NCBI GenBank assembly: GCA_942490765.1
Contig: CALNYM010000011.1
Coordinates: 36,829-76,828, forward strand
Direction of reading: 5' to 3'
Length of the DNA stretch: 40,000 bases
Origin: an uncultured Desulfobacterales bacterium
GTDB taxonomy: Bacteria; Desulfobacterota; Desulfobacteria; Desulfobacterales; 4572-123
This document shows, one piece after another, positions 20,186 to 36,091 of this stretch (the stretch's first letter is position 1; each line of letters begins with the position of its first letter). Below the pieces are notes generated by a model. It was not told where the DNA came from and did not search any database. It saw only the letters and a program-made list of their open reading frames with translations. Made by a program: the position numbers and the translations under genes.

Positions 20186-20210
20186 GATGGCGATTTTTTA
20201 CGACGCCATC
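20186..20210 (-). terminator. Hairpin overlapping the mttB stop codon (weak terminator candidate)
   Basis: Minus strand reads GATGGCG-TCGTAAAAAAT-CGCCATC (7-bp stem) followed by TACTGCGTTTTAGGGATTTT. The T-tract is not immediately adjacent to the stem. Confidence 0.3.
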
Positions 20211-21681
20211 ATTCTTTGATGCCCAGTTCTTTTTCGGCGCCGTCAACAATGTCACGCACTTGTTTGAGGACAGCGTCTGAAAGTTTCGGCGGTTCATATG
20301 TCTCAAGGATGTGACGAACCGCTTCGCCGGCCCGCTCGTATGCGTCTTTTGAACCGTTTTCTTCCCAGCGGAATCTCATCTGCCGGTTCAGCAGCTTCGG
20401 ACTTGTGGTCAGCCGCATGTGCTTGAAGGTGGATTCGTGGGCGAGATAATCCTTGAAAGGGCCGACCTCCTTGATCGTATCGATGGACAGGGTTTCTTCA
20501 TTGACCTCAATGCCGTTTACCGTCCGTTTGATCATACCGGCCACTTCGTTATCCAATACCAGTTGTGCCAGATCGAAAGTGATGCCCATTTCCAGCATTC
20601 CCAAGCCGTAAATTACGTTGCACCCTGACAACGCAGGCAAGATACCGGTGATGGTCTTTTCATGGCCGGACTGGTAGTCAACCACTTTGCTGTCGCCCTA
20701 TCCACCGGCGGCGAAACTGGGCAACCCATAGTAGCGGGCAAGCCGGGCCACCGCCGCATTGATCATGGCCGTCTCAGGGGCACCCACCGTTGCCGTGGCA
20801 TACTTCAGGTCCAGAGGGCAGGTGGAACTGGCATAAATGAACGGCGTCCCTTTTTGAACCAGTTGGCCCAGAACAAGACTTGCCAGATTTTCGCTGTTTT
20901 GCTGTACCAATGTGCCGGCAATGTGGATGGGGGAAGAGCCGCCGGTCATGGCCATGCCGATACAGTTTAACCCAATGCCGTTTCGGGCCGCTTCGATAAT
21001 GATGTCACAATGGTGGGACGACAGCTTCAAGGGGCTGATGGGACAGGTCACAAAGGTCAGAAACGGTCTTTCCCTGAATTTATCCATACCCCCGGCGATG
21101 GCAGCGCACATTTCAAGAATTTTTCCGCACTGATACCGATCCACCGGACCCAGCCAGTGATGCTTGGTCGTATTGGTGAGTGACGCCTCGGCATTATGCA
21201 GTGCCTGCACCCTGGGGTCTTTGTCATGGGAAAGCATGCAGCGTTCATAGGTTTCCACATGTTCCAGAGAATCGATGAGCCGGGCGGCCATCTCGATATC
21301 GGCCTTGGTGGTTTTGCGATGTTCTCCCGTATAAGGATCGACAAACATGATGCCTTCACCAAAATTGGTGAACGTCACCCGGTTGGCTTCCAGAACCACA
21401 TCGCTCTCCGGTATGCGGCCGTAGGCATGAAACGTAGCCGGCGCCGTCCGGATCGACGCTTCCACCAGGTAGGGTGGCAGGGTAACGACTTTTGTTTTTT
21501 CATTCACACTGGCGCCGGCAGCACCGAAGATCTGCCTTGCCTCTTCGCTTTCCACAAAAACACCGGTGCATTTCAGGATTTCAAGGGAACCCAGGTGTAT
21601 TTCATGCACTTCGTCGTCGGTGAGTGTGTTTAGACTGAAGCCGCCGCTGGACAATTTCCCGGATTTGGTTGGTCGCTTCAT
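20209..21681 (-). CDS. mttB: Trimethylamine:corrinoid methyltransferase MttB with an in-frame UAG (pyrrolysine) codon, 490 codons
   Basis: Track ORFs 20698..21681 and 20209..20685 are in the same frame, and only TAG (20700..20698) interrupts it: ...[50 protein letters not shown]... AGGAGG lies 5 nt upstream of ATG 21681. The product has MttB family layout throughout. Confidence 0.85.
20698..20700 (-). other. UAG recoding site (predicted pyrrolysine, codon 328 of mttB copy 1)
   Basis: The plus strand reads CTA, which is TAG on the minus strand, in the context GGT GGA TAG GGC GAC AGC AAA. Confidence 0.8.
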
Positions 21682-21703
21682 TTTTTCCTCCTGTAGAAGT
21701 CAG

Positions 21704-23098
21704 TTAACTATTTTTTTCGATGGCGTTTTTGACGGCGGTTAGTATTTGATCCATCTGTTCTTTAGTGGCGACAAGGGCCGGCGCAAAGAGCATCATGGTG
21801 TTCATACCCGGCAGGCTGGAGTTGGTTCTGCCCACCAGCACGCCCTGGGCGGCCACATCCGCCACCAGTTTACCCATAAACGCTTCGGAAACAGGCGTTT
21901 TGGATGCCTTGTCCGTCACGAACTCCACCCCACAGAAAAGACCTTTGCCGCGGACGTCTCCAACAATGGGAAAATCCAAAAACGCTTTCAGGCCATTGAG
22001 CAGATATTCGCCTACCACCCTGCTGTTTTCCACAAGGTTTTCATCATCAATGATGCGGGCCGTCTCAAGACCCGCGGCCATGGCGCCGGTACACCCGCCA
22101 TAGGTGCTGATATCCCGGAAATAATTCAACCGTTTTTCCGGTGTCCCGGTATCGAGGAACAGGTTAAAAATGTCATCGCTTATGGCGGTAACCGATAATG
22201 GCTCATAGCAACTGGCAACGCCCTTGGCCATGGTCACCATGTCCGGCGTTACATCATAGTGTTCATGGCCCCAGAATTTTCCGGTACGACCGAACCCGCA
22301 GACCACCTCGTCAAAGATCAGGTAGGCCCCATATTTTTTGCAGATCTGCTGGAGTATGGGATAGTATTCCTGGACGGGCACCAGGATGCCGCCGCCAGCG
22401 ACAATGGGTTCCACGATCACCCCCCCCACGGTGTCCGGGCCCTCTTTTAAAATGACATCTTCCAGGGCGCGGGCGCATTCGATGTTACAATCCGGATAGG
22501 TCTTGCCAAAGGCGCACCGGTAGCAAAGCGGGTGGGGAAACTCGGCAAACCCTTCAGCCATGGGTCCGAAATGCGCTTTTCGTTCACTCTGTCCCCCGGC
22601 GCTCAATGCACCGATGGTGGTACCGTGATAGTCCCGGTCACGGTAGATCACCTTGAATTTACCTTTACGGTCATCGTTGATTTTCGCAAGCTGCCGGATG
22701 ACCTTAAAGGCCTTCTCATTGGCTTCGGAACCGGAATTTGAAAAAAATATTTTCTTTTGATGGGGAAGTTTCTCTGCGAGTTTTTTAGCAAATTTAATGG
22801 CGGGGACTGTGCCGACCGCACCGGCGTAGTAGCACAGTTTTGTCAACTGTTCAGCCACCGCCTCGGCAATACTCCTGCGACCGTAACCCACCACCACGCC
22901 CCACACACCACCGGAGACCGCATCAAGATATTCCCGGCCCCGGATATCTTTTACCACAAGGCCGTTGCCTTCCACAATAACCATCTGTTCCTTGTCTGCA
23001 AAGACACTATGGTCCTTGAGATGATGCCATAAAAAATCCTTGTCCGCCGCAACCATCTCTTCCACATCGTAATCAAGCCAGTTTGTTTTCGGATCCAT
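21704..23098 (-). CDS. Class-III PLP-dependent aminotransferase (omega-amino acid / beta-alanine / taurine:pyruvate type)
   Basis: 464 aa with the DEVVCGFGRTGKFW motif and the PLP-lysine context VTMAKGV. The stop lies 22 nt before the mttB start. Confidence 0.85.
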   Translation of the reverse strand: MDPKTNWLDYDVEEMVAADKDFLWHHLKDHSVFADKEQMVIVEGNGLVVKDIRGREYLDAVSGGVWGVVVGYGRRSIAEAVAEQLTKLCYYAGAVGTVPAIKFAKKLAEKLPHQKKIFFSNSGSEANEKAFKVIRQLAKINDDRKGKFKVIYRDRDYHGTTIGALSAGGQSERKAHFGPMAEGFAEFPHPLCYRCAFGKTYPDCNIECARALEDVILKEGPDTVGGVIVEPIVAGGGILVPVQEYYPILQQICKKYGAYLIFDEVVCGFGRTGKFWGHEHYDVTPDMVTMAKGVASCYEPLSVTAISDDIFNLFLDTGTPEKRLNYFRDISTYGGCTGAMAAGLETARIIDDENLVENSRVVGEYLLNGLKAFLDFPIVGDVRGKGLFCGVEFVTDKASKTPVSEAFMGKLVADVAAQGVLVGRTNSSLPGMNTMMLFAPALVATKEQMDQILTAVKNAIEKNS

Positions 23099-23205: not shown

Positions 23206-24780
23206 TTATTTTGCATCCGGCATGGAAGAGATTGTTCCATCCCAGGTATCCACGAGACCGCAGGCTTCCTGGTCTTCGGGAAACCAGGTGGCGGTGACGC
23301 ATTTGGATTCGGTAAAGAAACTGATACCATCTTTGCCCATCACATGCAGATCTCCAAAAAAGGATTGTTTATGACCGGTAAAACCGAAAATACCCAGTGG
23401 TACCGGGATGCCGACATTGACACCCACCATGCCGGCATCGGTCCGTTTGGAAAATTCCCGCGCGTAATGGCCGTTCTGGGTATAAATGACCGAACCGTTG
23501 GCGAAACGGCTGCTGTTCATCAAGGCCAGTCCTTCCTCAAAATTTTGGACCCGTTTGACGCAGAGTACCGGGCCAAAGACTTCCTCCCAGCCGATGGTCA
23601 TTTCCGGTGTCACATGGTCAAAGATGCAGGGCGCCAGATAAAAACCGCCCTCATGACCCGCTACCTTGGGATTACGGCCGTCCACGATCAGTTCGGCGCC
23701 CTCTTCGATTCCTTTTTCGATCCAGTCGGTGATAAACTTCAGATGGCCCGCGTTCAAGATGGGCCCCATGCCGGTGTCCGGGTCATAGGCAGGGCCAAGG
23801 TTCATTTCGGCTACAAATTTTTTCAGCAGCGCAATCAGTTCATCCGCAATGCACTCTTCCACAACGATCACCGGGCAGGCCATACACCGGGCACCGGCAC
23901 AGCCGCAATAGGCATTGATAATACCCCTGGCGGTTCGCTCCAGTTTTGCATCCCGCATGACCAGCGCATGGTTTTTGGCTTCGGTGAGGGCCTGCACGCG
24001 CTTACCGTTGGCAGCGGCGGTGGCATAGATGTGCTTGCCGGTTTTGGTGGACCCCACAAAAGACACCCCGGCAATATCGGGATGGCTAAGGAGAATCTCG
24101 GCCTCATTACGGCCTGCGGTGACCAGATTGAGTACCCCCTCGGGCAGTCCGGCCTCATGCCAGAGTTCCAGGAGTCGCATGGACGTCTGGGGCACAAAAC
24201 TGGCGGCTTTCAGCACCATGGTATTGCCCGTGGCGATACACAGCGGTGCCATCCAGCCATGGGGAATCATGGCGGGGAAATTCCAGGGTGCAATACCGGC
24301 GAAAACGCCGACGGGGTGTCTGTAGAGAACCGTGTCATATCCGGCGGAAGCGTTCATCAGGGATTCTCCCTTCATCAGGTGGGGGGTCCCGCAGGCAAAT
24401 TCGACCACTTCGTTGACTTTCAGCACATCGCCCATGCTTTCCCGCCAGTTTTTACCTTCTTCCTGGCACAAAAGATGGGTCAGTTCTTCCAGATGTTCAT
24501 CCACCAGCGCCTTCATACGATACAACACCTGAACCCGTTTACTGACCGGGGTGTCGGCCCAGGCCGGAAACGCCGCCTTAGCGGAATGAATGGCCGATTC
24601 GACTTCTTCGGATGTGCACTGCGGCGCCATGGCGATCACTTCGCCGGTGGACGGATTATAGCAATCCATGTATTTTGTTGTTTTTGATTCAAGCCACTGC
24701 CCGTTGACGCAGTATTTCAGTTTTTTGACCGAATTTTTTGAAGACGATCCACTCTCCATAAAATATCTTGATTTCTGCAA
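23206..24780 (-). CDS. mmsA: CoA-acylating methylmalonate/malonate-semialdehyde dehydrogenase (ALDH family)
   Basis: 524 aa. It is colinear with MMSDH/IolA-type enzymes as recalled: GIAPWNFPAMIP, GARCMACPV (catalytic Cys), AGMVGVNVGIPVPLGIFGFTGHKQSFFGDLHVMGKDGISFFT. The start is ambiguous between TTG 24780 and ATG 24759. Confidence 0.85.
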   Translation of the reverse strand: MQKSRYFMESGSSSKNSVKKLKYCVNGQWLESKTTKYMDCYNPSTGEVIAMAPQCTSEEVESAIHSAKAAFPAWADTPVSKRVQVLYRMKALVDEHLEELTHLLCQEEGKNWRESMGDVLKVNEVVEFACGTPHLMKGESLMNASAGYDTVLYRHPVGVFAGIAPWNFPAMIPHGWMAPLCIATGNTMVLKAASFVPQTSMRLLELWHEAGLPEGVLNLVTAGRNEAEILLSHPDIAGVSFVGSTKTGKHIYATAAANGKRVQALTEAKNHALVMRDAKLERTARGIINAYCGCAGARCMACPVIVVEECIADELIALLKKFVAEMNLGPAYDPDTGMGPILNAGHLKFITDWIEKGIEEGAELIVDGRNPKVAGHEGGFYLAPCIFDHVTPEMTIGWEEVFGPVLCVKRVQNFEEGLALMNSSRFANGSVIYTQNGHYAREFSKRTDAGMVGVNVGIPVPLGIFGFTGHKQSFFGDLHVMGKDGISFFTESKCVTATWFPEDQEACGLVDTWDGTISSMPDAK

Positions 24781-25121
24781 AATGTTATATCCCCTTTATT
24801 TTTAAGGTTTTTGTTAAATTTTTAGTTGATCTGTACGGAAGAATGTAAAAAACATGTTTGAATTTTTTTTGTCGAAGATATTGTCTGCATCATTAGGCGT
24901 TGTTAACTACGATGTCAAGTAAAAAATAACCTCAAGCTTACTTTTTCAGTTCATTGTTTTTATTTTTTCTACGTTTTTAGCTTTTTTTGTTTGTATTTTT
25001 ATGATAGATAATTTCAATCTGTTCCATAACAGGCATTTTAAACCAACCTGTGCATCGGCTTGAACCATCTCCGCGGTGGGGAAACAGGTCTCTGTTCAAA
25101 CACTAAAAAATGAGGATTTTT

Positions 25122-25634
25122 ATGGAAAACCGAAAATCAAAAAAAAATATCAAACCACCGGATCTGGTTGATTGCGAAATTATTAATTTATTGCAAAAGG
25201 ACGGCAGAATTTCAAATACCGATATTGCAAAAGAAATCGGCATTTCGGAGGGAACCGTTCGTACCCGCTTGAACCGGTTGATTAAAAACGAGGTCATTCA
25301 GATTGTCGCCGTCAGCAACCCCATCAAACTCGGCTTTAATATCGTCGGGCAAATCAGAATTCAGATAGATGTTGGCAAGATGGAGAATATTGTAACAAAA
25401 TTGAAAAAATTAAAAGCCCTGTGGTTTATCGTTCAGACCACCGGGGGAACCACCGGTCTTGAAGCTGAATTTAACGTCAAGTCTCTGGATGAACTCAATA
25501 CATTGATTTTTGAATACATCAACAAGATAGACGGTGTCATCAAAACCGAGGTCTCCCTGATAATGGATTTTATCAAGCGACGATATGATTGGGGCACCGC
25601 CATGGATGAAAAACAGGGATCCACGGACAAATAA
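25122..25634 (+). CDS. AsnC/Lrp-family transcriptional regulator
   Basis: Track ORF 25110..25634. GAGGA lies 5 nt upstream of ATG 25122. HTH motif: ISNTDIAKEIGISEGTVRTRLNRL. It has a C-terminal RAM-like domain and is divergent from the mmsA operon. Confidence 0.85.
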   Translation: MENRKSKKNIKPPDLVDCEIINLLQKDGRISNTDIAKEIGISEGTVRTRLNRLIKNEVIQIVAVSNPIKLGFNIVGQIRIQIDVGKMENIVTKLKKLKALWFIVQTTGGTTGLEAEFNVKSLDELNTLIFEYINKIDGVIKTEVSLIMDFIKRRYDWGTAMDEKQGSTDK

Positions 25635-25780
25635 TTTTAACCGACCACATATCGCGGAGCGTACCTGCTTTTGTTTATAAGCCAACTCTCGGCGAGACAC
25701 CGTGCTATTCTGATAAAACGATGGAATTATCATAATTTCGTTTTTTTTTAGTTTATTTTTATTAAATTTCGTTTTTATCG

Positions 25781-25809
25781 TTGACATATTAACGCTTGTT
25801 CGTTATATC
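25781..25809 (+). promoter_or_regulatory. Sigma-70-like promoter candidate for mtbB
   Basis: TTGACA (25781..25786), 17-nt spacer, then TATATC (25804..25809). It is preceded by about 40 nt of A/T-rich sequence (UP-like). This implies a leader of roughly 300 nt before ATG 26124. Confidence 0.4.
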
Positions 25810-26123
25810 TCGCCGAGCCTTCAGATATTGATTCACATTGAATAACTTTTGTTAATTTACGGTGGTGGCCACTGATGGTACACAATATCATTTCAGCTCA
25901 TAACCCGTAAACGCCGTGTTCCGGGCTTATACCCAAGCCGTCCCTGTCGGGTCGGATTTCTACCGTCTTAATACGGTGCCTAACTTACCTGAACAAAGGT
26001 CTGCAAAGTATGCCTTTCTTTTGCATAACAGATCGATTCCGTCTAATCGGTTACATGTAATCCCTTCTCACGGATTTTCATGTTATGCGAAAAACAAAAA
26101 ACGCTCTTAAAAAGGAGGAAAGC

Positions 26124-27515
26124 ATGGGAAAAATTAAAACCCGAATGGGCGATGGCTTCAAGGTCGAAATGACCGAAAGCGAAGTCCGAAAAGCCCTGGA
26201 AGAAGGGACTCAGGATGCGGCAGAACGCGCCCGGGTCGAACCGCTGACCCCGGACGATTTACAACAGATTTTTGAAATTTTTGCCTGTCCTTATCGAATC
26301 GTTGGTGTTGAGGAAGGCAATGAAGTCGTTCTTACCTACGACAGCCTTAACACCAAAATCAAGCGGGCCCAGATTTCAGCCAGCAAGATCCAGTCCCTGC
26401 AGATTTGTGAAAGGGCCCTGGGGGCAGACACCCTGGAGCTTGCCCATATCGACTATAGCTATAAACCCGTAAAACCGATCATTCCCTTTGAAAAACCGAT
26501 TATGGAGCAGGCTGTCCTGATCACAATCCCGGCATTGCTCTATGGCGCCATGCCCAACCTGGGGCTCTACAGCCAGCCGGACGGTCCATGCCCCAATCCT
26601 GCGGATCTTCTTCCCCATGGGAAAATTGCCGAAGCCAGGGCATCCTATGAAGAGGCTGCCGAATATGCCATAGCCGACATGGTTTATGTGGGCAGTGAGA
26701 TGTACGAAGCCGGCGCAGACGGCATCAATTTTGATACCACGGCAGCAGCCGGGGATGCGGAATTTTATGCAACCCTCAAGGCGGTGGAGATTCTCAGAAA
26801 AAAATATCCCGCCATGGGCATCCAGATGGGTATGGCCGCGGAATTTGTATTGGGAATGCACGGAGAGATTGAATATAACGGGGTCCGTCTGGCCGGGCTC
26901 TACCCCCACCAGCAGGTCAAACTCGCCGAGGAGGCGGGTGTAAACATTTTTGGACCGGCCGTCAATATCGTCACCAACGAATCGTTGCCCTGGAATATTG
27001 CCCGCTCGGTTACCTGGACCAAAGCCTGTACGGATGTTGCCAAGATTCCGGTGCACGCATGTCTGGGTATGGGGGTCGGCGGTGTCCCCCTGGCCCTTAC
27101 GCCACCCATCGATGCCCTTTCACGGGCATCAAAGGCCCATGTCGAGATTTGCAGGCTGGACGGGTTGTAGGTGGGTGTCGGAGACCCGTGCGGGATGCAC
27201 GCTGCACATGCAATAGTATCGGGAATGGGTGGAATACGCACTGCCGGAGATCTGGTAGCGCGTATGCAACTCAATGGCTCGATGAAAATTGATGCAGCAA
27301 AAAAACATGTCGCAGATAAGTTGAACATTTCTGTAGCGGATATTGCGGATCCGGTGGTGATGAACGAACTCCGGGAAGATCTGGATATCGGCCGCGTCAA
27401 TGAGGCCCCCGGTGTGGCCAAGGGTATTGATGCGAAGTTTCGGATCGCCAGGCTTCTGGACATTAACATCAACTCGGTGAACATATTCAAGGAGAAAATA
27501 GAACGCGACATATGA
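26124..27515 (+). CDS. mtbB: Dimethylamine:corrinoid methyltransferase MtbB with an in-frame UAG (pyrrolysine) codon, 463 codons
   Basis: Track ORFs 26085..27170 and 27171..27515 abut in the same frame and are separated only by TAG: ...[47 protein letters not shown]... AAGGAGG lies 6 nt upstream of ATG 26124. MtbB-family blocks are present (DYSYKPVKP, LYGAMPNLGLYSQPDGP, GADGINFDTT, GMHGEIEYNGVRLAGLYPHQQ). Confidence 0.9.
27168..27170 (+). other. UAG recoding site (predicted pyrrolysine, codon 349 of mtbB)
   Basis: Context is GAC GGG TTG TAG GTG GGT GTC GGA GAC. The downstream frame stays open for 115 codons with no RBS of its own. Confidence 0.85.
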
Positions 27516-28313: not shown

Positions 28314-28463
28314 ACGCAATGGCAATAACCGATTTTAACCGGGGAACCGTACCTGCCGAAAGGCACACGAACGGTTCGGGGAGGAGAATCAGGAGCAAGC
28401 GGTATTTTATTATTTCATTTGTCATTTTTAACCCCCTATTGAACAAAAGTAAGGAGGATGCAA

Positions 28464-29729: not shown

Positions 29730-29739
29730 TGGTGTAATA

Positions 29740-29766
29740 AATGAGGCCACCTTGTGTGGCCTCATT
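29740..29766 (+). terminator. Intrinsic terminator candidate after the binding-protein gene
   Basis: The 11-bp perfect stem AATGAGGCCAC / GTGGCCTCATT has the 5-nt loop CTTGT and begins 11 nt after the stop. It is followed by GTTGCGCTTTTCC. Confidence 0.6.
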
Positions 29767-30158
29767 GTTGCGCTTTTCCATTGGAATTTATCAAAAAACA
29801 GTGGATCTGGGGAATTGCTTTCCAACGTTTCTTGTGAATGTGGGGCATGTCGTAACACGTTTCTTCAAAGGTGCCGGGATCGCCACCATAGTCGTTCAGA
29901 CCCTTTTTAAAGCGCTTGAACGCCAAGTCTCTTTGCCATCTGTTGCAAACAGAACCTCTCGGTCCGAGAAAGTTCGCGGACAGATTTACCCGTCTGTCGC
30001 CTCGTCGACGGCAGTTTTTATCCATCTTTTTCATAATAAGAAAAAATACTTTTTTTATCCCAAGGAAAGCGACTGATTGCTCGTCATTAGCGTTTCGCTC
30101 TACAAACAACGAGGATTCCTCATACCCAGTCTTAGTAACTACTGACCCATGGTGAATT

Positions 30159-30890
30159 ATGAATATTTTAGAAACAAAGGATTTGACCAAACAATTCGGC
30201 GGCTTAATTGCCAACAATAAAATATCCATGCATTGCAAACAAGGGGAAATCCTGGGGCTGATCGGCCCCAACGGTGCCGGCAAGACCACTTTTCTCAATG
30301 CCATCGCTGGCTTGAGCGGCCCTACGTCCGGAAAGGTCTATTTTAAGGGTGAGGAATGTACCGGTTACCCTTCCCAAAAAATGTGCCGCAGAGGATTGTC
30401 GCGAACGTTCCAGATTCCCCAGCCGTTCCCGAGAATGACGGCTGTACAAAATGTTATGGTGGCAGCGGTTTTCGGCCGCAGGAAGCAATTCAGTGAAAAA
30501 GAATATTTGGACGTCTGCCGGGAAAAACTTGATTTTGTCGAATTTCCGGTGCAGGAAGACATCATATCCGGAACGTTGAATACCGTTCAGTTAAAACGTC
30601 TCGATCTGGCCCGGGCACTTGCTTCCAATCCTAAGCTGATACTTCTGGATGAGATCGCTTCCGGGCTTACAGAAGGAGAGCTGGGTGACCTGATGAAAAT
30701 CATCAGTAAAATAAGGGATATTGGGGTTACCATTATCATGGTCGAGCATATCATGCAGGTCATCATGGGGTTATGCGAACGCCTGGTGGTCATTCAGTTC
30801 GGCAATAAAATCGCCGAAGGGCCAACAAAAGCGGTTGCCCAGGACCCTAAGGTCGCTGAAGCTTATCTGGGTGCTTCGGAAGAACAGTAA
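30159..30890 (+). CDS. ABC transporter ATP-binding protein (LivG type)
   Basis: 243 aa with Walker A GPNGAGKTT and Walker B LILLDE. A LivG-style C-terminal extension is present. Confidence 0.85.
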   Translation: MNILETKDLTKQFGGLIANNKISMHCKQGEILGLIGPNGAGKTTFLNAIAGLSGPTSGKVYFKGEECTGYPSQKMCRRGLSRTFQIPQPFPRMTAVQNVMVAAVFGRRKQFSEKEYLDVCREKLDFVEFPVQEDIISGTLNTVQLKRLDLARALASNPKLILLDEIASGLTEGELGDLMKIISKIRDIGVTIIMVEHIMQVIMGLCERLVVIQFGNKIAEGPTKAVAQDPKVAEAYLGASEEQ

Positions 30891-30938
30891 AGCAGTATAC
30901 TTGGAAAATGGTAAATCAAGCCATAAAGGGAGGCGCAA

Positions 30939-31646
30939 TTGCTGCTCGAAGTAAACAATATCAACGCCGGGTACGATTTTTTACAGATTTTACGGAACCT
31001 TTCCTTAAACGTTGACAAAGGTGAATATGTTTGCCTGGTGGGACCAAACGGTGCCGGGAAAAGTACGATACTGAAATCCATTGCCGGTTTATTAAAACCC
31101 ATGTCCGGCGTTATCACATTTAACGAAGAACAAATTGACGGGTTGCCCGGGCATGTGATTCATAAAAAAGGAATCAGTTATATCTCTGAAGACCTGGATC
31201 TTTTTACCGCGATGTCGGTAAAGGAAAATCTGGCAATGGGCGCCTATACAATCAATGATAAAAAAAATATTAGCGAACTGTTTGGTTTTGTTTATGCCCT
31301 TTTCCCCAGGTTAAAGGAAAGAGAAAAACAACTGGCCGGAACCATGAGCGGCGGCGAGCGTAAAATGCTGGCCATCGGCCGGGGCATGATGTCCAATCCG
31401 AAGTTGATGCTGTTTGATGAACCATCAATGGGATTATCTCCGGAAATGACCAACGCTGTTTTTAAGGCCTTGGGTGTTTTAAACTCAAAAGGGGTGACCA
31501 TTTTGCTGGTGGAGCAGAATGTGACCAAAAGTTTCAAAGTAAGTACGCGGGGATACGTTCTGGAGCATGGTGAAATCGTACTGCAGGGGCCTTGCTCGGA
31601 TTTGGCCCGGAATGAACACGTACGAAAAGTATTTCTCGGGATTTAG
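30939..31646 (+). CDS. ABC transporter ATP-binding protein (LivF type)
   Basis: 235 aa with Walker A GPNGAGKST and signature MSGGERKM. It has a TTG start with GGGAGG 5 nt upstream. It ends in TAG, with an in-frame TAA 5 codons later. Confidence 0.85.
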   Translation: MLLEVNNINAGYDFLQILRNLSLNVDKGEYVCLVGPNGAGKSTILKSIAGLLKPMSGVITFNEEQIDGLPGHVIHKKGISYISEDLDLFTAMSVKENLAMGAYTINDKKNISELFGFVYALFPRLKEREKQLAGTMSGGERKMLAIGRGMMSNPKLMLFDEPSMGLSPEMTNAVFKALGVLNSKGVTILLVEQNVTKSFKVSTRGYVLEHGEIVLQGPCSDLARNEHVRKVFLGI

Positions 31647-31682
31647 CAAACAATTAATGAATAACGGCAGGGGAAAGTATCT

Positions 31683-32720
31683 ATGGCAAACCCAAAAACC
31701 GAATTGATAGTGAACCGTCTGGGCCGCTGGCTAAAGTCGGCCGGCGGAATAACCGTTACCTTGACAATCGTTGCGGCCTGTCTCGCAGCAATGGATAAGG
31801 GCAGTTATATCATTGTTCAAACCATCGTCACGGGGGGAATGTGGGCATTGGTGGCCATGGGATTGGCCCTGATTTTCGGTGTGATGAATATTACCAGTTT
31901 TGTTCATGGCGAATTTTTTATGATCGGCAGTCTGGTGGCCTATTTTGTCATCACGCCTTTTGTCGACACAATAGCCGACAATCCGGATACGCTTTGGGCT
32001 GCGGTAATGCCTTTGGCAACCATGTTCATCGCTTTGGTGGTCGGTGCCATTGCCGGGGCGATTAGCGAGCATGTGGTCTTTCGACCCATGCGTAAACGCA
32101 GTAAAAAAGATTGGTTGATGAACTCCTTTGTTCTTACTCTGGGCCTGTCTGTCATACTGATAAACAGCCATCAGGTATTTTTAGGGGCTAGTTTCAAGGG
32201 AGTTGTAAAATACTGGCATTATCCATCAATATCCATCTTTGGTGCCTATATTTCCTTTGACCGGGTAATGGTCTTCATCATTGCCATGTTTTCAATCTCT
32301 GGCTTTTGGGTACTGATGAGACTGACCAAAGTCGGCAGGGCCATCCGAGCCGTTTCCCAGAGTGAAAACGGGGCCATTATCACCGGTGTTAACATTGACG
32401 CCATTCAGACCCTTACCCTGGCTTTGAGCTGCGGTATGGCTGCTCTGGCCGGTGCCGCACTTCTTTTTATGTATCCGGCATATCCGACAGTTGGGTTGGG
32501 ACCGCTTTACAATTCGTGGTTCATTGTTATCGTCGCCGGCCTGGGAAACGTGGCCGGTGCGGCTTTCGGAGGATTTCTCGTAGCATTACTCCAGGTTTTG
32601 ACTACCGTCTATATAGGTGAAGGATGGGACTATACGGTTCCGGTTGCCTTTTTGATGCTCGTTCTGGTTTTTAAGCCTTCAGGCATATTTGGAAGTGAAG
32701 TCAGAGGAAAACTTGAATAA
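31683..32720 (+). CDS. ABC transporter permease (LivH type)
   Basis: 345-aa polytopic membrane protein in the branched-chain amino-acid permease family. Confidence 0.8.
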   Translation: MANPKTELIVNRLGRWLKSAGGITVTLTIVAACLAAMDKGSYIIVQTIVTGGMWALVAMGLALIFGVMNITSFVHGEFFMIGSLVAYFVITPFVDTIADNPDTLWAAVMPLATMFIALVVGAIAGAISEHVVFRPMRKRSKKDWLMNSFVLTLGLSVILINSHQVFLGASFKGVVKYWHYPSISIFGAYISFDRVMVFIIAMFSISGFWVLMRLTKVGRAIRAVSQSENGAIITGVNIDAIQTLTLALSCGMAALAGAALLFMYPAYPTVGLGPLYNSWFIVIVAGLGNVAGAAFGGFLVALLQVLTTVYIGEGWDYTVPVAFLMLVLVFKPSGIFGSEVRGKLE

Positions 32721-32745
32721 TCAGCAAGAATAAACAGGAGCAGCC

Positions 32746-33780
32746 GTGAAAAGTATTCAAGCAAATAATAAAAATGATGGTATTGATCGTTTATCAAAAT
32801 ATACCGGCATGACCCCGATGGGTCTCCTGGGCCTGGCGGTCATCGCCATATTGCCCTTTATTCCCCCTTTTAACCAGGAGTATCTGATACGATGGCTGGT
32901 TTTTGGCCTGTTCATGGCAGCCCAGGCTGTGGTTTTCAATTTTACCAATGGTTACATCAATATCGTTAACTTCGGTTTTGCCGCCTTTGTCGGTTTAGGT
33001 GCCTATACCTCTGGCATTCTGTCTGTAAAACTGGGTCTTTCTCCCTGGATCACAATTTTTCTGGGGATTATTCCGGCCGCATTCGTGGGCTTTATTACCG
33101 GGGTATTAACCCTCCGGTTGCGGGGTATTTATGCGGCCATCATGGCCTGGTTTGTCGGGTTGGCCCTGATGGGGCTGGCCACCAAAATGGTTTGGCTGAC
33201 CGAAGGCCCTCTTGGATTGAATTGTCCGGCGCTTTTTAAGACCTCATCAAACATTCCCTATTTCTACACCATATTGGTTATGTTGCTGGTATCCTATATT
33301 GTATTGAATCGAATCGTAAAATCTCATGCCGGCCTGGCATTTATCGCCATTGGTCAAAACATGGATGCGGCCATGACCTCGGGGATCAACCCTACTTTTT
33401 ACCGGGTATTTAATTTTACGGTTTCCTGCGCGTTTGCCGGTTGGCTGGGAGGATTCTATGCACATTATTACGGAATCCTGATGCCGGAATCAATGCACAC
33501 CTCTAAAACGGTGGAAGTCCTGGTAGTGGGTTATCTTGGTGGACGGGCCACTCTCTGGGGCGGTGCTGCAGCCGCTATTCCCTTTGTTTTTTGCATGGAA
33601 ATGATCAGGTCCGCAACATCAAATTATCCAGGTGTTAATTTAATTTTTTATGGATTATCTTTGGTTCTGCTGATGATGTTCTATCCCGGTGGCCTTGCCT
33701 ATCTTTACCAGAACATAGTTGAACGTGTCAAAAATCCCTGGCTGAAACGATTGTTCGGTTTAAAGGTCATAACAAAATAA
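32746..33780 (+). CDS. ABC transporter permease (LivM type)
   Basis: 344-aa polytopic membrane protein. It has a GTG start with AGGAG 5-6 nt upstream. Confidence 0.8.
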   Translation: MKSIQANNKNDGIDRLSKYTGMTPMGLLGLAVIAILPFIPPFNQEYLIRWLVFGLFMAAQAVVFNFTNGYINIVNFGFAAFVGLGAYTSGILSVKLGLSPWITIFLGIIPAAFVGFITGVLTLRLRGIYAAIMAWFVGLALMGLATKMVWLTEGPLGLNCPALFKTSSNIPYFYTILVMLLVSYIVLNRIVKSHAGLAFIAIGQNMDAAMTSGINPTFYRVFNFTVSCAFAGWLGGFYAHYYGILMPESMHTSKTVEVLVVGYLGGRATLWGGAAAAIPFVFCMEMIRSATSNYPGVNLIFYGLSLVLLMMFYPGGLAYLYQNIVERVKNPWLKRLFGLKVITK

Positions 33781-33835
33781 AAACAGAAATACGGCGCGAA
33801 AGTTTGTCCGAAGCGCTTACAGATGCCGGAAACAA

Positions 33836-33890: not shown

Positions 33891-33920
33891 AAAACAAATC
33901 CTCTATAAAAAGGTCGGTGA

Positions 33921-34550
33921 TTATACCAGAGATTTGGCCAGCTTGGTGGCTGAACCGGCATCTGCGGCATATCCGTCGGCACCGATTTCATCGGCATACT
34001 TCTGATTTACCGGGGCACCGCCGATGATGACCTTGACCTTGTCGCGGTATCCGGCTTCAACCAGGGCGTCGATGGTTGTTTTCATCATACCCATGGTGGT
34101 GGTGAGCAGGGCAGAGATGGCAACGATGGTGGCGCCCTGGTCTTTTACGGCGGCCACAAAGGTTTCCGGGGCCACGTCAACACCCAGGTTGATCACCTCA
34201 AAACCGGCGCTTTCCAGCATCATGGCCACCAGGTTTTTACCGATGTCATGCAGGTCGCCCTTGGCCGTACCCATGGCAACCTTGCCGGCGGCTTTGGCAT
34301 CTTCTACGGACAGCAGGGGTTTAAGGATTTCCACTGCTGCGGCCATGGCCTTGGCGGACATGAGCACTTCGGGGATAAACATATCGCCGTTCTGCATTTT
34401 TTCGCCGACAATATCCATGCCTTTGATCAATCCGTTATTGAGAATATCTTTTGCTTCCATTCCCTCGTTTACGGCGGCCTGTACAAGCGTTTTCAATGTT
34501 GCTGCATCGCCGGCTATCAGTGTGTTCGAAAGTGCGTTTAAATCTGCCAT
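33921..34550 (-). CDS. mttC: Methyltransferase-cognate corrinoid protein (B12-binding; MttC-like by position)
   Basis: 209 aa with a cap domain plus a B12-binding domain carrying DxHxxG (GDLHDIGK). It starts 47 nt downstream of the mttB copy 2 stop. Confidence 0.8.
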   Translation of the reverse strand: MADLNALSNTLIAGDAATLKTLVQAAVNEGMEAKDILNNGLIKGMDIVGEKMQNGDMFIPEVLMSAKAMAAAVEILKPLLSVEDAKAAGKVAMGTAKGDLHDIGKNLVAMMLESAGFEVINLGVDVAPETFVAAVKDQGATIVAISALLTTTMGMMKTTIDALVEAGYRDKVKVIIGGAPVNQKYADEIGADGYAADAGSATKLAKSLV

Positions 34551-34597
34551 TGTCTTTGTCTCCTTTGTTGATAATTGATAATAAGTTTTTTACCGGG

Positions 34598-36091
34598 TTA
34601 TTTTTTTAAAACCGCGGCCCGTTTTTCTTTTGCTTCGGCCTCGGCATCTTCAAATATTGTGTTTAACTGGGCCTGAATGTTTTCAGGCAACGCTTCTACC
34701 TTGTGACTGGCAATGATGTGGGTTGCCCTGGCATAGGCTTTTTCCACAACATCCTTTGATCCATCTGCAATCCATCCGTCACGGCTTTTTCTGTCAAAAA
34801 GGTCGCCCTGGGACTGCCGCCGCATGTTTTTAAAGGTATGCGGATGGGTGATGAATTCACCGCCGTGGCCCACCTCTTTGATGACGTCAAAAGCAATGGC
34901 TTCATCGGTAATGGTAAATCCTTCGACGGCCTTCATGATCATTCTCAGCATTTCATTGTGTAAAACCGCCTGGGCGTAATCCCAGGTCAAACCGCTGTCA
35001 AGCATCCCGAGGCCGTAAATCAGGTTGGCACCTGCCAACGCCGTTAAAGTGGCCGTTAAAGTATATTCATGGGCTGCCTGAGCATCGGGCATTTTGCTGT
35101 CCACCTATCCACCGGCGACCCAGGAGGGCAGCCGGTAAAATTTGGCCAGTTTGGCGATGGCCGCGCTGAACATGCCCATTTCCGGGGTCCCCATGGCCGC
35201 CAGGCCGGTTTTCAGATCCATAATACTGGTGGAACTGCCGTACACCATGGGATGTCCTTTGCGAACGGCCTGTCCCAGAACGATCATGCTCAAATTTTCA
35301 GCATTATGGGTGACAAGGCTGCTGGCCAGGTTGATGCAGGTGGTGCCACCCGCCAGCCCAAGGGGGTTTATTTTCAGGGGAACCCCCAGTCGACAGGCTT
35401 CAATCAGAACGTCGCAGGCATCTTTTGAATGCAGCAACGGGCTGATGGGATCACAGGTTGTGGAGAAAATCGGTCTTTCACGGAATTTGTCATCACCGCC
35501 GGCCACAACGGAGGCCATCTTAAAACAGGTCCTCAGGTTTTCAACCGAGTTGATGCCGATATAGCCATGTTTGGTGCAGGAATTCAAAAAACTTTTGATG
35601 TTGTAAAGGCAGCAGATATCCTGGTCCATATCGCAGGGGGTTAACGGTCTTTCAAACACAATGACCTGGTCCAGTGCGTCCAGAAACAACGTGGCATCAT
35701 CAACGTCAGCTTTTGTGGGGGTTCTTAATTTTCTGGTTTTGGGGTCGATCATCATGGGGGCTTCGCCAAAATTGACAAATCCCGAACGACCGTTTTCACA
35801 AACATAATCCTTTTCAGGATCACGGGCGCAAGCCTTAAAAGTGGAAGGGCAGGACCTGATGGCATCTTCAACCAGATGGGCTGGGATTTTGACTATTTTG
35901 GTTCTATTATTGACAATACAACCAATTCCGTCAAAAATTTCAAGGGCCTGGGAGCTTTCCACTTTGACCCCCATTTCCCAGAGAATTTCCAGAGTAGCCA
36001 GATGAATTTTTTCCAATTCGTCATCGGAAAACATGTTCAGACCGATACCACTGGTCAGAACGGTTCCCGGCTGCAAATTTCTTACCGCCAT
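34598..36091 (-). CDS. mttB: Trimethylamine:corrinoid methyltransferase MttB (second, divergent copy) with an in-frame UAG (pyrrolysine) codon, 497 codons
   Basis: Track ORFs 35105..36091 and 34598..35104 abut in the same frame and are separated only by TAG: ...[50 protein letters not shown]... The TAG is in the same position and GG-TAG context as copy 1. Confidence 0.85.
35105..35107 (-). other. UAG recoding site (predicted pyrrolysine, codon 329 of mttB copy 2)
   Basis: The plus strand reads CTA, which is TAG on the minus strand, in the context GGT GGA TAG GTG GAC AGC AAA. Confidence 0.8.

What the first reader, a model, noticed from the sequence alone, without database searches (positions are those of the whole stretch)
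20209..36091. A 16-kb island holds three Pyl-codon methyltransferases but no decoding or downstream methyl-transfer genes
Within 16 kb there are mttB (x2), mtbB, two corrinoid proteins, an AsnC/Lrp regulator and an ABC importer. A fourth MttB-family gene lies at 1..521. I did not find the following in the window: pylT/pylSBCD, a monomethylamine methyltransferase, a corrinoid reductive activase (RamA-like), or a methylcorrinoid:THF/CoM methyltransferase. The gene neighbourhood (ETF, AOR, Tat-dependent binding protein, AsnC regulator) looks bacterial rather than methanogen-like. Bacterial Pyl users are few. The island therefore predicts a conditional genetic-code expansion whose remaining parts must be encoded elsewhere in the genome.
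Basis: partly seen in the sequence, partly recalled or inferred. Interest (0 to 1): 0.7.

Follow-up and report, generated by a model that had tools for sequence, protein, structure and literature searches.

The report
Pyrrolysine methylamine methyltransferase cluster, sulfate reducer
This stretch from an uncultured sulfate-reducing bacterium (Desulfobacterales) really does carry three methylamine methyltransferase genes that need the 22nd amino acid pyrrolysine while lacking the decoding genes, but this arrangement is already documented for this bacterial group, so it is a sound but largely ordinary finding with one intriguing side lead.

Summary
Window 20209-36091 holds two mttB genes and one mtbB gene, each with one in-frame TAG at the known pyrrolysine position. 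It also holds two corrinoid proteins, an AsnC regulator and a Liv-type ABC importer. A fourth, non-Pyl MttB gene starts at 521. No pylT, pylSBCD, MtmB, RamA/RACo or MT2 gene lies in the window or in about 5 kb (left) and 9 kb (right) of flank.

The contig is bacterial: a Desulfobacterales MAG at about 96% nt identity, and Desulfocicer vacuolatum is the closest cultured relative. The TAGs are conserved, and the codons after them are under purifying selection (dN/dS 0.05-0.16). Read-through is therefore functional, and decoding genes must lie elsewhere. I could not locate them. More distant relatives carry pylSc-pylBCD-pylT-pylSn directly beside mtbB.

Kivenson et al. 2021 already described Desulfobacterales with a pyl cassette, several Pyl-mttB copies and Pyl-mtbB. 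This is a new member of a known kind. "Few bacterial users" is outdated, and "conditional" is untested.

Side lead: these Pyl genes recurrently sit in operons with non-Pyl MttB, BCCT transporters, aminotransferases and DMGDH/ETF genes. That suggests stepwise demethylation of betaines rather than only of free TMA and DMA.

The parts
20209..21681 (-). mttB1: Pyl-type trimethylamine-family methyltransferase (490 codons). The in-frame TAG is at 20698-20700.
   Evidence: Translation and codon check. Pfam MTTB 304 bits. TIGR02369 672 bits against a cutoff of 525. Rfam PYLIS_3 at 20601-20700. Gly110, Met249 and Tyr364 equivalents are kept. dN/dS after the TAG is 0.054.
21704..23098 (-). Class III omega-aminotransferase, 22 bp upstream of mttB1 on the same strand.
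   Evidence: Pfam Aminotran_3 296 bits. NCBIfam PRK07678 480 bits against a cutoff of 488. The adjacency is conserved in L003 and L027, and the neighbourhood is conserved in L036 and L037.
23206..24780 (-). CoA-acylating (methyl)malonate-semialdehyde dehydrogenase, the first gene of the Aldedh-AT-mttB1 operon.
   Evidence: Pfam Aldedh 467 bits. TIGR01722 MMSDH 536 bits against a cutoff of 448.5.
25110..25634 (+). AsnC/Lrp-type transcriptional regulator. It is divergent from the Aldedh-AT-mttB1 operon and upstream of mtbB.
   Evidence: Pfam HTH_24, HTH_AsnC-type and AsnC_trans_reg. It is conserved next to Aldedh and mtbB in L003, L004, L027 and L036.
25635..26123 (+). AT-rich spacer upstream of mtbB (GC 0.40). 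Most of it (25614-26088) is missing in the sister genome L003. It contains a TTGACA -35-like hexamer near 25782.
   Evidence: blastn of the window against L003, sequence, GC content. No Rfam family reaches gathering score.
26124..27515 (+). mtbB: Pyl-type dimethylamine-family methyltransferase, with the in-frame TAG at 27168-27170. The likely start is MGKIKTRMGDG at 26124; the longest ORF starts at 26085.
   Evidence: Pfam Dimeth_Pyl 668 bits. TIGR02368 517 bits against a cutoff of 369. Rfam PYLIS_2 at 27168-27267. The TAG is present in 51 of 53 full-length family ORFs in the loci. dN/dS after the TAG is 0.06.
27660..28313 (+). Corrinoid protein 1 (MtbC-like), 144 bp after mtbB.
   Evidence: Pfam B12-binding_2 and B12-binding. 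TIGR02370 224 bits against a cutoff of 215. DVHDIG motif.
28458..33780 (+). Liv/Urt-type ABC importer. The binding protein is at 28458-29729, the ATPases at 30159-30890 and 30939-31646, and the permeases at 31683-32720 and 32746-33780. The doubtful 111-aa ORF at 29741-30076 also lies here. The whole block 28315-33821 is absent in the sister genome.
   Evidence: Pfam Peripla_BP_6, ABC_tran x2 and BPD_transp_2 x2. Absence in L003. Homologous Liv-type systems sit next to MttB1-type genes in L046, L048, L054, L074, L091 and L096.
33921..34550 (-). Corrinoid protein 2, 47 bp downstream of mttB2.
   Evidence: Pfam B12-binding_2 and B12-binding. TIGR02370 199 bits, below the cutoff of 215; the best match is MtgC_2 at 213 bits. 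DLHDIG motif.
34598..36091 (-). mttB2: a divergent Pyl-type MttB (497 codons) with the in-frame TAG at 35105-35107. It belongs to a rare lineage.
   Evidence: Pfam 311 bits. TIGR02369 624 bits. The TAG aligns with the Pyl position of PDB 7XCL. It is 43% identical to MttB1 and 37% to M. barkeri MttB, with Met249 replaced by Leu. Among 1.84 billion representatives, one is 70% identical and the next is 46%.
36371..36556 (.). Site where the sister genome carries a 12.8-kb transposase-flanked module: sigma54 activator, non-Pyl MttB, Pyl MttB', Pyl MtbB', BCCT and GABA transaminase. The window has 186 bp here.
   Evidence: blastn of the window against L110. Gene table of L110 and L111. Pfam BCCT and DDE_Tnp_1. 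TIGR00700 532 bits against a cutoff of 507.
3..521 (-). N-terminal 173 codons of a non-Pyl MttB-superfamily gene that runs off the window start.
   Evidence: Pfam MTTB 123 bits. The full 485-aa orthologue at L022:10535-11992 has no TAG. TIGR02369 312 bits, below the cutoff of 525. Met at the Pyl column and Glu at position 364.
4938..12187 (-). Opp/Dpp-type ABC transporter. It comprises a fused ATPase (4938-6602), two permeases (6632-8540) and a Tat-signal family-5 binding protein (10598-12187), with a CoA-transferase/GNAT gene (8446-10356) in between.
   Evidence: Pfam. SRRQFL twin-arginine motif. Orthologues at 56-94% identity lie directly next to mtbB or mttB in L008, L010, L011, L012, L045, L072, L075, L076, L077 and L081.

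Best explanation
The interval is the substrate-activation half of a corrinoid-dependent methylated-amine demethylation system in an uncultured Desulfobacterales sulfate reducer.

**Shown**
- Three methyltransferase-I genes are present: two deeply divergent mttB paralogues and one mtbB.
- Each needs UAG read as pyrrolysine at the catalytic position.
- Two cognate corrinoid proteins are encoded, one next to mtbB and one next to mttB2.
- The decoding, activase and MT2 genes are not in the window.

**Inferred mechanism**
- Each enzyme would methylate the Co(I) form of its corrinoid partner.
- An AsnC/Lrp regulator and three transporter systems supply control and uptake.
- mttB1 is co-oriented and almost contiguous with an omega-aminotransferase and a CoA-acylating semialdehyde dehydrogenase.

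**Inferred missing parts**
- Pyrrolysine synthesis and decoding (pylTSBCD), the reductive activase (RACo/RamA type) and the methylcorrinoid:THF methyltransferase are encoded elsewhere in the genome.
- The methyl groups are then probably oxidised through a reversed Wood-Ljungdahl pathway coupled to sulfate reduction, as proposed for related Desulfobacterales.
- The substrates are assumed to be TMA and DMA.
For: - **Gene identity:** gene identities and TAG positions come.
- **Functional read-through:** the TAG is kept in window, L003 and L004 orthologues. dN/dS downstream of the TAG is 0.054 (mttB1), 0.16 (mttB2) and 0.064/0.057 (mtbB), similar to upstream. 51 of 53 MtbB-family ORFs and all 73 MttB1-type ORFs in 113 loci keep the TAG.
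- **Taxonomy:**
- **Missing parts seen next to the same genes in more distant relatives:**
  - L008/L066: mtbB-pylSc-corrinoid-pylB-pylC-pylD-tRNAPyl-pylSn.
  - L023: a RACo/AcsV-like activase directly before mtbB-pylSc.
  - L107: URO-D-family MT2 candidates and a pyl cassette.
  - L054: pylT-pylSc beside an MttB1 orthologue.
- **Literature:** the same genotype is described in PMC8318568.
- **Selenocysteine:** a SelD gene with in-frame TGA lies about 1 kb beyond the right window edge. This matches the dual code expansion described in that paper.
Against: - **Cassette not found:** the pyl cassette, activase and MT2 of this organism were not located. They are absent from the window and from about 5 kb (left) and 9 kb (right) of flank.
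- **No matching PylSc:** none of the top 120 PylSc homologues came from the sister MAG or from D. vacuolatum. The three I looked up were other organisms.
- **Substrate not tested:** a non-Pyl MttB from L107 also passes the TIGR02369 cutoff at 617 bits. The family score therefore does not prove TMA specificity.
- **PYLIS hits:** the three PYLIS regions fold no better than shuffled sequence (z = -1.0, -0.1, +1.1). The Rfam hits probably reflect coding homology only.
- **Operon context:** mttB1 has no adjacent corrinoid gene, and its operon partners are not explained by TMA use.
Confidence: 0.8

Rival explanations
1. **Stepwise betaine demethylation.** This refines the substrate rather than denying the system. 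The Pyl enzymes here would not be, or not only be, free TMA and DMA methyltransferases.

Proposed sequence:
1. A non-Pyl MttB removes the first methyl from a quaternary omega-amino-acid betaine.
2. A Pyl-MttB demethylates the resulting tertiary amine.
3. A Pyl-MtbB, or a DMGDH-like flavoprotein with ETF, demethylates the secondary amine.
4. A class III aminotransferase deaminates the primary amine, and an aldehyde dehydrogenase oxidises the product.

This would explain why no MtmB is found in the window.

For the window operon the fitting substrate would be beta-alanine betaine:
beta-alanine betaine -> beta-alanine -> malonate semialdehyde -> acetyl-CoA.

For the sister-strain and D. vacuolatum module it would be gamma-butyrobetaine:
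gamma-butyrobetaine -> GABA.
For: - **Window operon:** Aldedh(MMSDH)-AT-mttB1 lie on one strand with a 22-bp AT-mttB1 gap.
- **Module in the sister strain and in cultured D. vacuolatum DSM 3385:** non-Pyl MttB, Pyl MttB', Pyl MtbB', BCCT and an aminotransferase lie on one strand with gaps of 46, 10, 59 and 63 bp. The aminotransferase passes the GABA-transaminase equivalog (532 bits against 507).
- **Tandem pairing:** 24 of 24 members of one non-Pyl MttB clade lie directly upstream of an MttB1-type Pyl gene.
- **DMGDH link:** a DMGDH/sarcosine-dehydrogenase-family gene lies directly upstream of the MttB1 orthologue in 13 of 20 closest loci. ETF genes and a non-Pyl MttBx often follow.
- **Aminotransferase enrichment:** at least 10 distinct class III aminotransferase genes in 4 families lie next to Pyl methyltransferase genes in 1.23 Mb of loci.
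- **Paralogue divergence:** the Pyl paralogues are 43-60% identical. From my own knowledge, methanogen isozymes are far closer to each other.
- **Known chemistry:** corrinoid betaine demethylation in E. limosum stops at the tertiary amine, and the Pyl adduct chemistry is described as making a quaternary amine from a tertiary one (PMC12155760).
Against: - Every biochemically characterised Pyl MttB or MtbB uses TMA or DMA (family knowledge).
- Gly110 and Tyr364 are conserved in both window MttBs, and Met249 is conserved in MttB1.
- In L004 the MMSDH/aminotransferase pair sits beside a dihydropyrimidinase-like gene. This suggests ordinary pyrimidine/beta-alanine catabolism that merely neighbours mtbB.
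- Islands often gather separate pathways for related substrates.
- MtmB absence was screened only in the window and loosely in the loci, not genome-wide.
- No experiment was possible.
Confidence: 0.25
2. **Decaying or untranslated remnants.** The organism no longer decodes UAG as pyrrolysine. The three genes would be truncated pseudogenes, or would be expressed as two separate polypeptides from the upstream and downstream ORFs.
For: - No pyl gene could be found for this organism or its closest named relatives.
- A GTG codon follows the TAG immediately in mttB2 and mtbB.
- Some relatives' cassettes lack an intact pylB (L010, L011, L023-L026).
Against: - Purifying selection downstream of the TAG is as strong as upstream, in three genes and two genome pairs.
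- The TAG and the reading frame are conserved across dozens of homologues.
- There are no frameshifts or extra stops.
- Pyrrolysine is the catalytic residue, so a split protein without it should be inactive on tertiary and secondary amines.
Confidence: 0.05
3. **Methanogen or recent archaeal transfer.** The contig would be archaeal, or the genes would be recent imports from methanogens. That would make the cluster an ordinary methanogen mtt/mtb locus.
For: The gene families were first described in Methanosarcina. Rfam PYLIS models built on those genes match here.
Against: - The nearest loci are all Desulfobacterales/Thermodesulfobacteriota, followed by Bacillota at 52-55%.
- MttB1 and MttB2 are only 40% and 37% identical to M. 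barkeri MttB.
- The neighbours are bacterial in type: a Tat binding protein, an Opp system, ETF, and a sigma54 activator in relatives.
- The split pylSc/pylSn seen in relatives is the bacterial form.
Confidence: 0.01

Closest known systems
Deltaproteobacteria-bbl and related Desulfobacterales genomes with dual genetic-code expansion (Kivenson, Paul and Valentine 2021, PMC8318568)
   Same: Both belong to the same order. Both have multiple Pyl-type mttB copies plus Pyl-type mtbB, cognate TIGR02370-type corrinoid proteins, a nearby transcriptional regulator, ABC transporters and non-Pyl MttB genes. No MtbA or Mcr was reported there. A Sec-type SelD lies in the flank here. In both cases the MT2 is unidentified.
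   Different: In that work the pyl genes, ramA and a metH-family MT2 candidate lie close to mttB; here none is within reach. The transporters differ: Liv-type, Opp-type and (in the sister strain) BCCT here, against LAO/Ehu-type there. The aminotransferase/MMSDH operon partner, the DMGDH/ETF link and the rare MttB2 lineage are not described there.
Methanosarcina mttBC / mtbBC operons with pylTSBCD, RamA and MtbA
   Same: The MT1 families are the same, the UAG is at the same catalytic position, the MT1-corrinoid gene pairing is the same, and the catalytic Gly and Tyr are the same.
   Different: The host is bacterial. Identity is only 37-40%. There is no MtmB, MttP, MtbA or RamA nearby. The acceptor is presumably THF rather than coenzyme M. 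The paralogues are deeply divergent rather than near-identical isozymes.
Acetohalobium arabaticum carbon-source-dependent Pyl decoding (Prat et al. 2012; cited in PMC8318568; details from my own knowledge)
   Same: It is a bacterial Pyl user with Pyl-type mttB. TAG is still used as a stop in some genes here (5 of 44).
   Different: It is a Firmicute in which the methyltransferase genes lie beside the pyl cassette. Conditional expression was measured there and is untested here.
Non-Pyl MttB-superfamily quaternary-amine systems: MtgB (D. hafniense) and MtyB, MtcB, MthB (Eubacterium limosum) (PMC8604678, PMC12155760)
   Same: The fourth MttB gene of the window and the non-Pyl MttBs of the related modules belong to this superfamily. 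They sit with corrinoid proteins and transporters.
   Different: Those systems remove one methyl and stop at the tertiary amine, in organisms without Pyl. Here non-Pyl and Pyl members are tandem partners.

Membership tests
Pyl-dependent trimethylamine methyltransferase MttB (PF06253 / TIGR02369) | In-frame UAG at the position of Pyl334 of M. barkeri MttB | tested here: met
   The mttB2 TAG aligns with the X of PDB 7XCL. Both window genes have the TAG at the Pyl column of a 139-sequence alignment.
Pyl-dependent trimethylamine methyltransferase MttB (PF06253 / TIGR02369) | Catalytic Gly110 and Tyr364 (PMC9842639) | tested here: met
   Both residues are conserved in MttB1 and MttB2. Thr111 is Glu in both. 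Met249 is kept in MttB1 and is Leu in MttB2.
Pyl-dependent trimethylamine methyltransferase MttB (PF06253 / TIGR02369) | Score above the curated equivalog cutoff | tested here: met
   672 and 624 bits against a cutoff of 525. Caveat: a non-Pyl homologue also passes at 617 bits.
Pyl-dependent trimethylamine methyltransferase MttB (PF06253 / TIGR02369) | Adjacent cognate corrinoid protein gene | tested here: inconclusive
   mttB2 has one 47 bp downstream. mttB1 has none adjacent; the nearest is about 6 kb away.
Pyl-dependent trimethylamine methyltransferase MttB (PF06253 / TIGR02369) | TMA-dependent methylation of the Co(I) corrinoid protein | not testable with these tools
   This needs enzyme assays.
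Pyl-dependent dimethylamine methyltransferase MtbB (PF09505 / TIGR02368) | Family score and conserved in-frame UAG | tested here: met
   Pfam 668 bits. TIGR02368 517 bits against a cutoff of 369. The TAG is shared by 51 of 53 full-length family ORFs. Rfam PYLIS_2 starts at the TAG.
Pyl-dependent dimethylamine methyltransferase MtbB (PF09505 / TIGR02368) | Adjacent corrinoid protein with the DxHxxG cobalamin-binding motif | tested here: met
   Corrinoid 1 lies 144 bp downstream. TIGR02370 224 bits against a cutoff of 215. DVHDIG motif.
Complete pyrrolysine system (pylT, pylS or pylSc+pylSn, pylB, pylC, pylD) | pylT and pyl protein genes present in the window | tested here: not met
   No tRNA. 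No Rfam tRNA. No Pfam or NCBIfam hit. No tblastn/blastp hit with the L008 Pyl proteins.
Complete pyrrolysine system (pylT, pylS or pylSc+pylSn, pylB, pylC, pylD) | pyl genes present elsewhere in the same genome | not testable with these tools
   I attempted this through PylSc searches and look-ups without success. Genome-wide scanning was capped. Indirect support comes from dN/dS.
Full methylamine:THF/CoM methyl-transfer system (MT1 + corrinoid + MT2 + reductive activase) | MT2 (URO-D/MtbA-like or MtrH/MetH-like) and RamA/RACo activase in the locus | tested here: not met
   Neither is in the window or its flanks. Both are present next to homologous genes in L023, L014, L107, L045, L061 and L088.
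Mobile genomic island | Integrase or transposase, tRNA target, or flanking repeats in the window | tested here: not met
   None of the annotated window ORFs has a transposase or integrase Pfam domain, and there is no tRNA. Flanking repeats were not searched.
Mobile genomic island | Strain-variable content with mobile-element scars | tested here: met
   Relative to the 96% nt sister genome, the window has extra blocks at 12486-19793, 25614-26088 and 28315-33821. It lacks a 12.8-kb module flanked by ISL3 and Y1/DDE transposase genes. GC ranges from 0.40 to 0.54 between blocks.

The most novel reading that the evidence does not exclude
In Desulfobacteraceae, the pyrrolysine-dependent MttB and MtbB paralogues would be the second and third steps of a complete, corrinoid-dependent N-demethylation of betaine-type quaternary amines.

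1. A non-Pyl MttB takes the quaternary amine.
2. A Pyl-MttB takes the tertiary amine.
3. A Pyl-MtbB, or a DMGDH-like/ETF enzyme, takes the secondary amine.
4. A dedicated aminotransferase and aldehyde dehydrogenase consume the primary amino acid.

Pyrrolysine would then serve a wider substrate range than TMA, DMA and MMA. The window operon (MMSDH, omega-aminotransferase, mttB1) would be the beta-alanine-betaine version. The BCCT/GABA-transaminase module of the sister strain and of Desulfocicer vacuolatum would be the gamma-butyrobetaine version.
Probability: 0.22. Interest if true: 0.8.

Novelty: new member of a known kind. Interest (0 to 1): 0.42.

Why it matters
As stated, the finding adds one more Desulfobacterales genome to a genotype described in 2021: sulfate reducers that carry Pyl-type TMA and DMA methyltransferases and so may compete with methanogens for methylamines. 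This bears on the "non-competitive substrate" assumption in sediment methane budgets.

Three further points add value:
- **Dispersal.** In this lineage the methyltransferase genes are physically uncoupled from the pyl cassette. They sit in a rearrangement hot spot where whole methyltransferase modules come and go between strains at 96% nt identity.
- **Experimental access.** A cultured type strain, Desulfocicer vacuolatum DSM 3385, carries a homologous Pyl module, so the question can be tested at the bench.
- **Substrate range.** The conserved operon partners are a non-Pyl MttB, BCCT, a GABA transaminase or omega-aminotransferase with MMSDH, and DMGDH with ETF. They make a substrate range beyond free methylamines directly testable. 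If confirmed, this would be the first new catalytic role for pyrrolysine since its discovery.

Tried and rejected
**Hunt for this organism's pyl cassette**
- A PylSc query from L008 returned 4123 hits, but only the best 120 are listed. None came from a contig of the sister MAG.
- Look-ups of P0052, P0002 and P0011 all hit other organisms. They were still useful as synteny examples.
- A search with the partial divergent PylSc of L054 found only 3 short hits.
- The listing of cluster members gave no accession numbers.

**Walking outward from the window**
- The right flank (+9 kb) and left flank (about 5 kb) hold no pyl, RACo or MT2 genes.
- Looking up the sister strain's second MtbB revealed the 12.8-kb module but again no pyl genes.

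**Structure and regulatory signals**
- The three PYLIS regions fold no better than shuffles, so I do not claim a PYLIS structure.
- A sigma54 promoter consensus gave 4 one-mismatch hits against 3.95 expected, none in a relevant spacer.
- The sigma70 and terminator scans were near background and are not used as evidence.

**MtmB and stop-codon usage**
- A screen for MtmB-like genes through other ORFs with internal TAG found only fusions of adjacent housekeeping genes or antisense ORFs. No MtmB query sequence was available, so this is a weak negative.
- TAG is the stop of 2 of 32 window genes and 5 of 44 with flanks. The sample is too small and uncalibrated to argue for or against conditional decoding.

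**Rejected explanations**
- Methanogen origin is rejected.
- An assembly chimera is rejected.
- I treat the 111-aa ORF at 29741-30076 and the 95-aa ORF at 36264-36551 as probably spurious: they have no family hit and odd composition.

Full report
**1. Observation**

The window has 33 plausible genes. Three genes inside 20209-36091 are interrupted by a single in-frame TAG and otherwise read through cleanly:

| Gene | Coordinates | TAG |
|---|---|---|
| mttB1 | 20209-21681(-) | codon 328 |
| mtbB | 26085-27515(+) | codon 362; the real start is probably 26124 |
| mttB2 | 34598-36091(-) | codon 329 |

- Pfam assigns the genes to MTTB and Dimeth_Pyl. NCBIfam equivalogs are passed: TIGR02369 at 672 and 624 bits (cutoff 525), and TIGR02368 at 517 bits (cutoff 369).
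- Rfam PYLIS_3 (twice) and PYLIS_2 (once) begin exactly at the TAGs.
- The mttB2 TAG aligns with the pyrrolysine of M. barkeri MttB, PDB 7XCL. The catalytic Gly110 and Tyr364 named in PMC9842639 are conserved in both MttBs.
- Two corrinoid proteins with DxHxxG motifs follow mtbB and mttB2.
The full orthologue of that fourth gene has 485 aa, no TAG, and Met at the Pyl column.
- The Tat signal on the family-5 binding protein is real (SRRQFL).
- The same gene order is found in a 281-kb ENA contig and in an independent short-read assembly. The arrangement is therefore not an assembly artefact.

**2. Whose DNA it is**

- A scan of species-representative genomes with the MtbB N-part returned only Desulfobacterales/Thermodesulfobacteriota MAGs at 71-98% identity, then Bacillota at 52-55%.
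- The best hit, CAXXLK010000002.1 (a 2.58-Mb contig), is about 96% identical in DNA over the shared parts.
- A second MtbB of that genome is 90% identical to a protein of Desulfocicer vacuolatum DSM 3385 and 78% identical to one of Desulforhopalus singaporensis.
- A methanogen origin is excluded.

**3. Is the UAG really read?**

- The TAG is conserved in the orthologues of L003 and L004. The codons after it evolve under purifying selection as strong as those before it. dN/dS is 0.054 for mttB1, 0.16 for mttB2, and 0.064 and 0.057 for mtbB.
- Across 113 fetched loci (1.23 Mb), 51 of 53 full-length MtbB-family ORFs and all 73 MttB1-type ORFs keep the TAG.
- This is strong indirect evidence that the lineage translates through the codon.
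- The three PYLIS regions fold no better than shuffled sequence. I read the Rfam hits as coding-sequence homology, not as evidence of an insertion element.

**4. Where the missing parts are**

- I could not find them for this organism. The window and about 5 kb (left) and 9 kb (right) of flank hold none.
- In more distant relatives they sit right beside the same genes.
  - L008/L066 read SBP5-OppBC-ATPase-SBP5-mtbB-pylSc-corrinoid-pylB-pylC-pylD-tRNAPyl-pylSn-mtbB'-mttB x3-aminotransferase.
  - L023 has a RACo/AcsV-like activase before mtbB-pylSc.
  - L107 has a URO-D-family gene, a pyl cassette and tRNAPyl.
  - L054 has pylT-pylSc next to an MttB1 orthologue.
The uncoupling from the cassette is the unusual point in this lineage.
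- A PylSc search returned 4123 homologues. None of the listed 120 came from the sister MAG or D. vacuolatum, and three look-ups hit other organisms.

**5. A mosaic rather than an island**

- The window has no integrase, transposase or tRNA.
- Against the sister genome it has three extra blocks:
  - 12486-19793, carrying an FGGY kinase, two GlcD-like oxidases, ETF and an SDR;
  - 25614-26088, the mtbB upstream spacer;
  - 28315-33821, the whole Liv-type importer, which sits between the two corrinoid genes.
- The window lacks a 12.8-kb module that the sister genome carries between mttB2 and the HAD gene. That module is flanked by ISL3 and Y1/DDE transposase genes.
- The same module, with a 100% identical MtbB', is on a separate 8.7-kb contig in a sample that also holds window-type contigs.
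- Orthologues of the SDR and oxidase genes are linked to MttB1 and MttBx in L043. The first block is therefore more likely a deletion in the sister genome than an insertion here.

**6. Comparison with what is known**

- Kivenson, Paul and Valentine 2021 (PMC8318568) described Desulfobacterales genomes with the pyl cassette, tRNAPyl and ramA. They also reported Pyl-type mttB (Pyl at 327 of 485), up to five mttB copies, Pyl-type mtbB, non-Pyl MttB genes, nearby transporters and a regulator. The MT2 was unidentified, the Wood-Ljungdahl pathway was proposed to run in reverse, and selenocysteine was used.
- The present locus fits that description. It includes a Sec-type SelD just beyond the right edge, with TGA at L001:13433.
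- It is therefore a new member of a known kind. "Bacterial Pyl users are few" is outdated. "Conditional" expansion is an analogy with Acetohalobium and is untested. TAG ends 5 of 44 genes counted here, which settles nothing.

**7. What does not fit the simple TMA/DMA story**

- mttB1 is the last gene of an operon-like row: CoA-acylating (methyl)malonate-semialdehyde dehydrogenase, omega-aminotransferase, then mttB1, with a 22-bp gap before mttB1. The row is conserved in L003 and L027, and in rearranged form in L036 and L037.
- In 13 of the 20 next-closest loci, the gene directly upstream of the MttB1 orthologue is a DMGDH/sarcosine-dehydrogenase-family flavoprotein. It is usually followed by ETF genes, an orthologue of the window's non-Pyl MttB, and a sigma54 activator.
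- One clade of non-Pyl MttB (24 members) always lies directly upstream of an MttB1-type gene.
- The 12.8-kb module of the sister strain reads non-Pyl MttB, Pyl MttB', Pyl MtbB', BCCT and aminotransferase, with gaps of 10-63 bp. The same gene order occurs in D. vacuolatum. Its aminotransferase passes the GABA-transaminase equivalog.
- At least ten distinct class III aminotransferase genes from four families lie beside Pyl methyltransferase genes in the loci.
- The Pyl paralogues are old. MttB1 and MttB2 share 43% identity, about as much as either shares with the archaeal enzyme. MttB2 belongs to a rare lineage: one representative at 70%, the next at 46%, among 1.84 billion.
- Known corrinoid betaine demethylation in Eubacterium limosum stops at the tertiary amine (PMC12155760). 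The proposed role of Pyl is to turn a tertiary amine into a quaternary adduct.
- Together these points allow a reading in which three demethylases act in series on one betaine and an aminotransferase takes the product. This would also explain the missing MtmB.
- Against this reading:
  - all characterised Pyl enzymes use TMA, DMA or MMA;
  - the active-site residues are conserved;
  - in L004 the MMSDH/aminotransferase pair sits with a dihydropyrimidinase-like gene, as in ordinary beta-alanine catabolism.
- I give this reading about 0.2-0.25.

**8. Verdict**

- The main explanation is a Pyl-dependent MT1/corrinoid gene set of a Desulfobacterales sulfate reducer, with decoding, activation and MT2 genes encoded elsewhere. 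I hold it at about 0.8.
- Novelty is low for the finding as written. The operon context gives a concrete hypothesis that can be tested in a cultured strain.

Noticed in passing
L110:2908-15728 (sister genome CAXXLK010000002.1); insertion point corresponds to window 36371-36556; also L111 and L112: A 12.8-kb module sits between mttB2 and the HAD gene in the sister strain. It is flanked by ISL3 and Y1/DDE transposase genes. It encodes a sigma54 activator, a non-Pyl MttB, a Pyl MttB, a Pyl MtbB, a BCCT transporter and a GABA transaminase. The same gene order, without transposases and with a corrinoid gene, is in cultured Desulfocicer vacuolatum DSM 3385.
   Followed up: yes
L028-L030, L033, L034, L036, L037, L039, L041-L044, L054 (e.g. 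L054:983-3430): A DMGDH/sarcosine-dehydrogenase-family gene (DAO+FAO_M+GCV_T) lies directly upstream of the Pyl-type MttB1 orthologue in 13 of 20 close loci. ETF beta/alpha genes, a non-Pyl MttB and a sigma54 activator often follow. I found no paper that links these with pyrrolysine.
   Followed up: partly
L001:13433 (about 1 kb beyond window position 40000): The SelD-like gene (AIRS/AIRS_C) has an in-frame TGA in a GSG-U-ASK motif. The organism probably also uses selenocysteine, giving dual code expansion as in PMC8318568.
   Followed up: partly
L010:4983-6839, L011:9175-11057, L023:10879-11655 (and L024-L026): Several relatives' pyl cassettes read pylSc-corrinoid-pylC-pylD with no pylB, or with only short pylB remnants, whereas L008 and L107 have an intact pylB. 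Either pylB is elsewhere or these cassettes cannot make methylornithine.
   Followed up: partly
L022:11989-13638 (just left of the window start): A 549-aa protein with no Pfam or NCBIfam match overlaps the stop of the non-Pyl MttB gene by 4 bases. An acyl-CoA dehydrogenase follows it. It is a candidate unknown partner of that methyltransferase.
   Followed up: partly
window 12520-13971 (FGGY kinase) and 30939-31646 (ABC ATPase): The only two window genes that end in TAG both lie inside blocks that are absent from the sister genome.
   Followed up: partly
L107:4582-6066; cluster of 24 genes such as L098:8444-9970: Some non-Pyl MttB proteins have Met, Ala or Thr at the Pyl column and Phe at position 364. 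They are close relatives of the Pyl type (40-57% identity). One scores 617 bits on the TIGR02369 "trimethylamine" equivalog, above its cutoff. Annotation pipelines would misname them.
   Followed up: partly
window 20601-20700, 27168-27267, 35008-35107: Rfam PYLIS matches are strong (60-82 bits), but the regions are not thermodynamically more stable than shuffled sequence.
   Followed up: yes
L009:7879-10719 and L007: A 946-aa DUF1638 + hydantoinase/ASKHA fusion protein lies next to mtbB in two Desulfobacterales MAGs. It may be an alternative corrinoid activase.
   Followed up: no
L114:15699-16524 and 19129-20581 (ENA ERZ21869602:ctg94241l): The ETF beta and FGGY kinase genes are split in the ENA long-read contig but intact in the window. 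These are probably sequencing frameshifts in that assembly.
   Followed up: no
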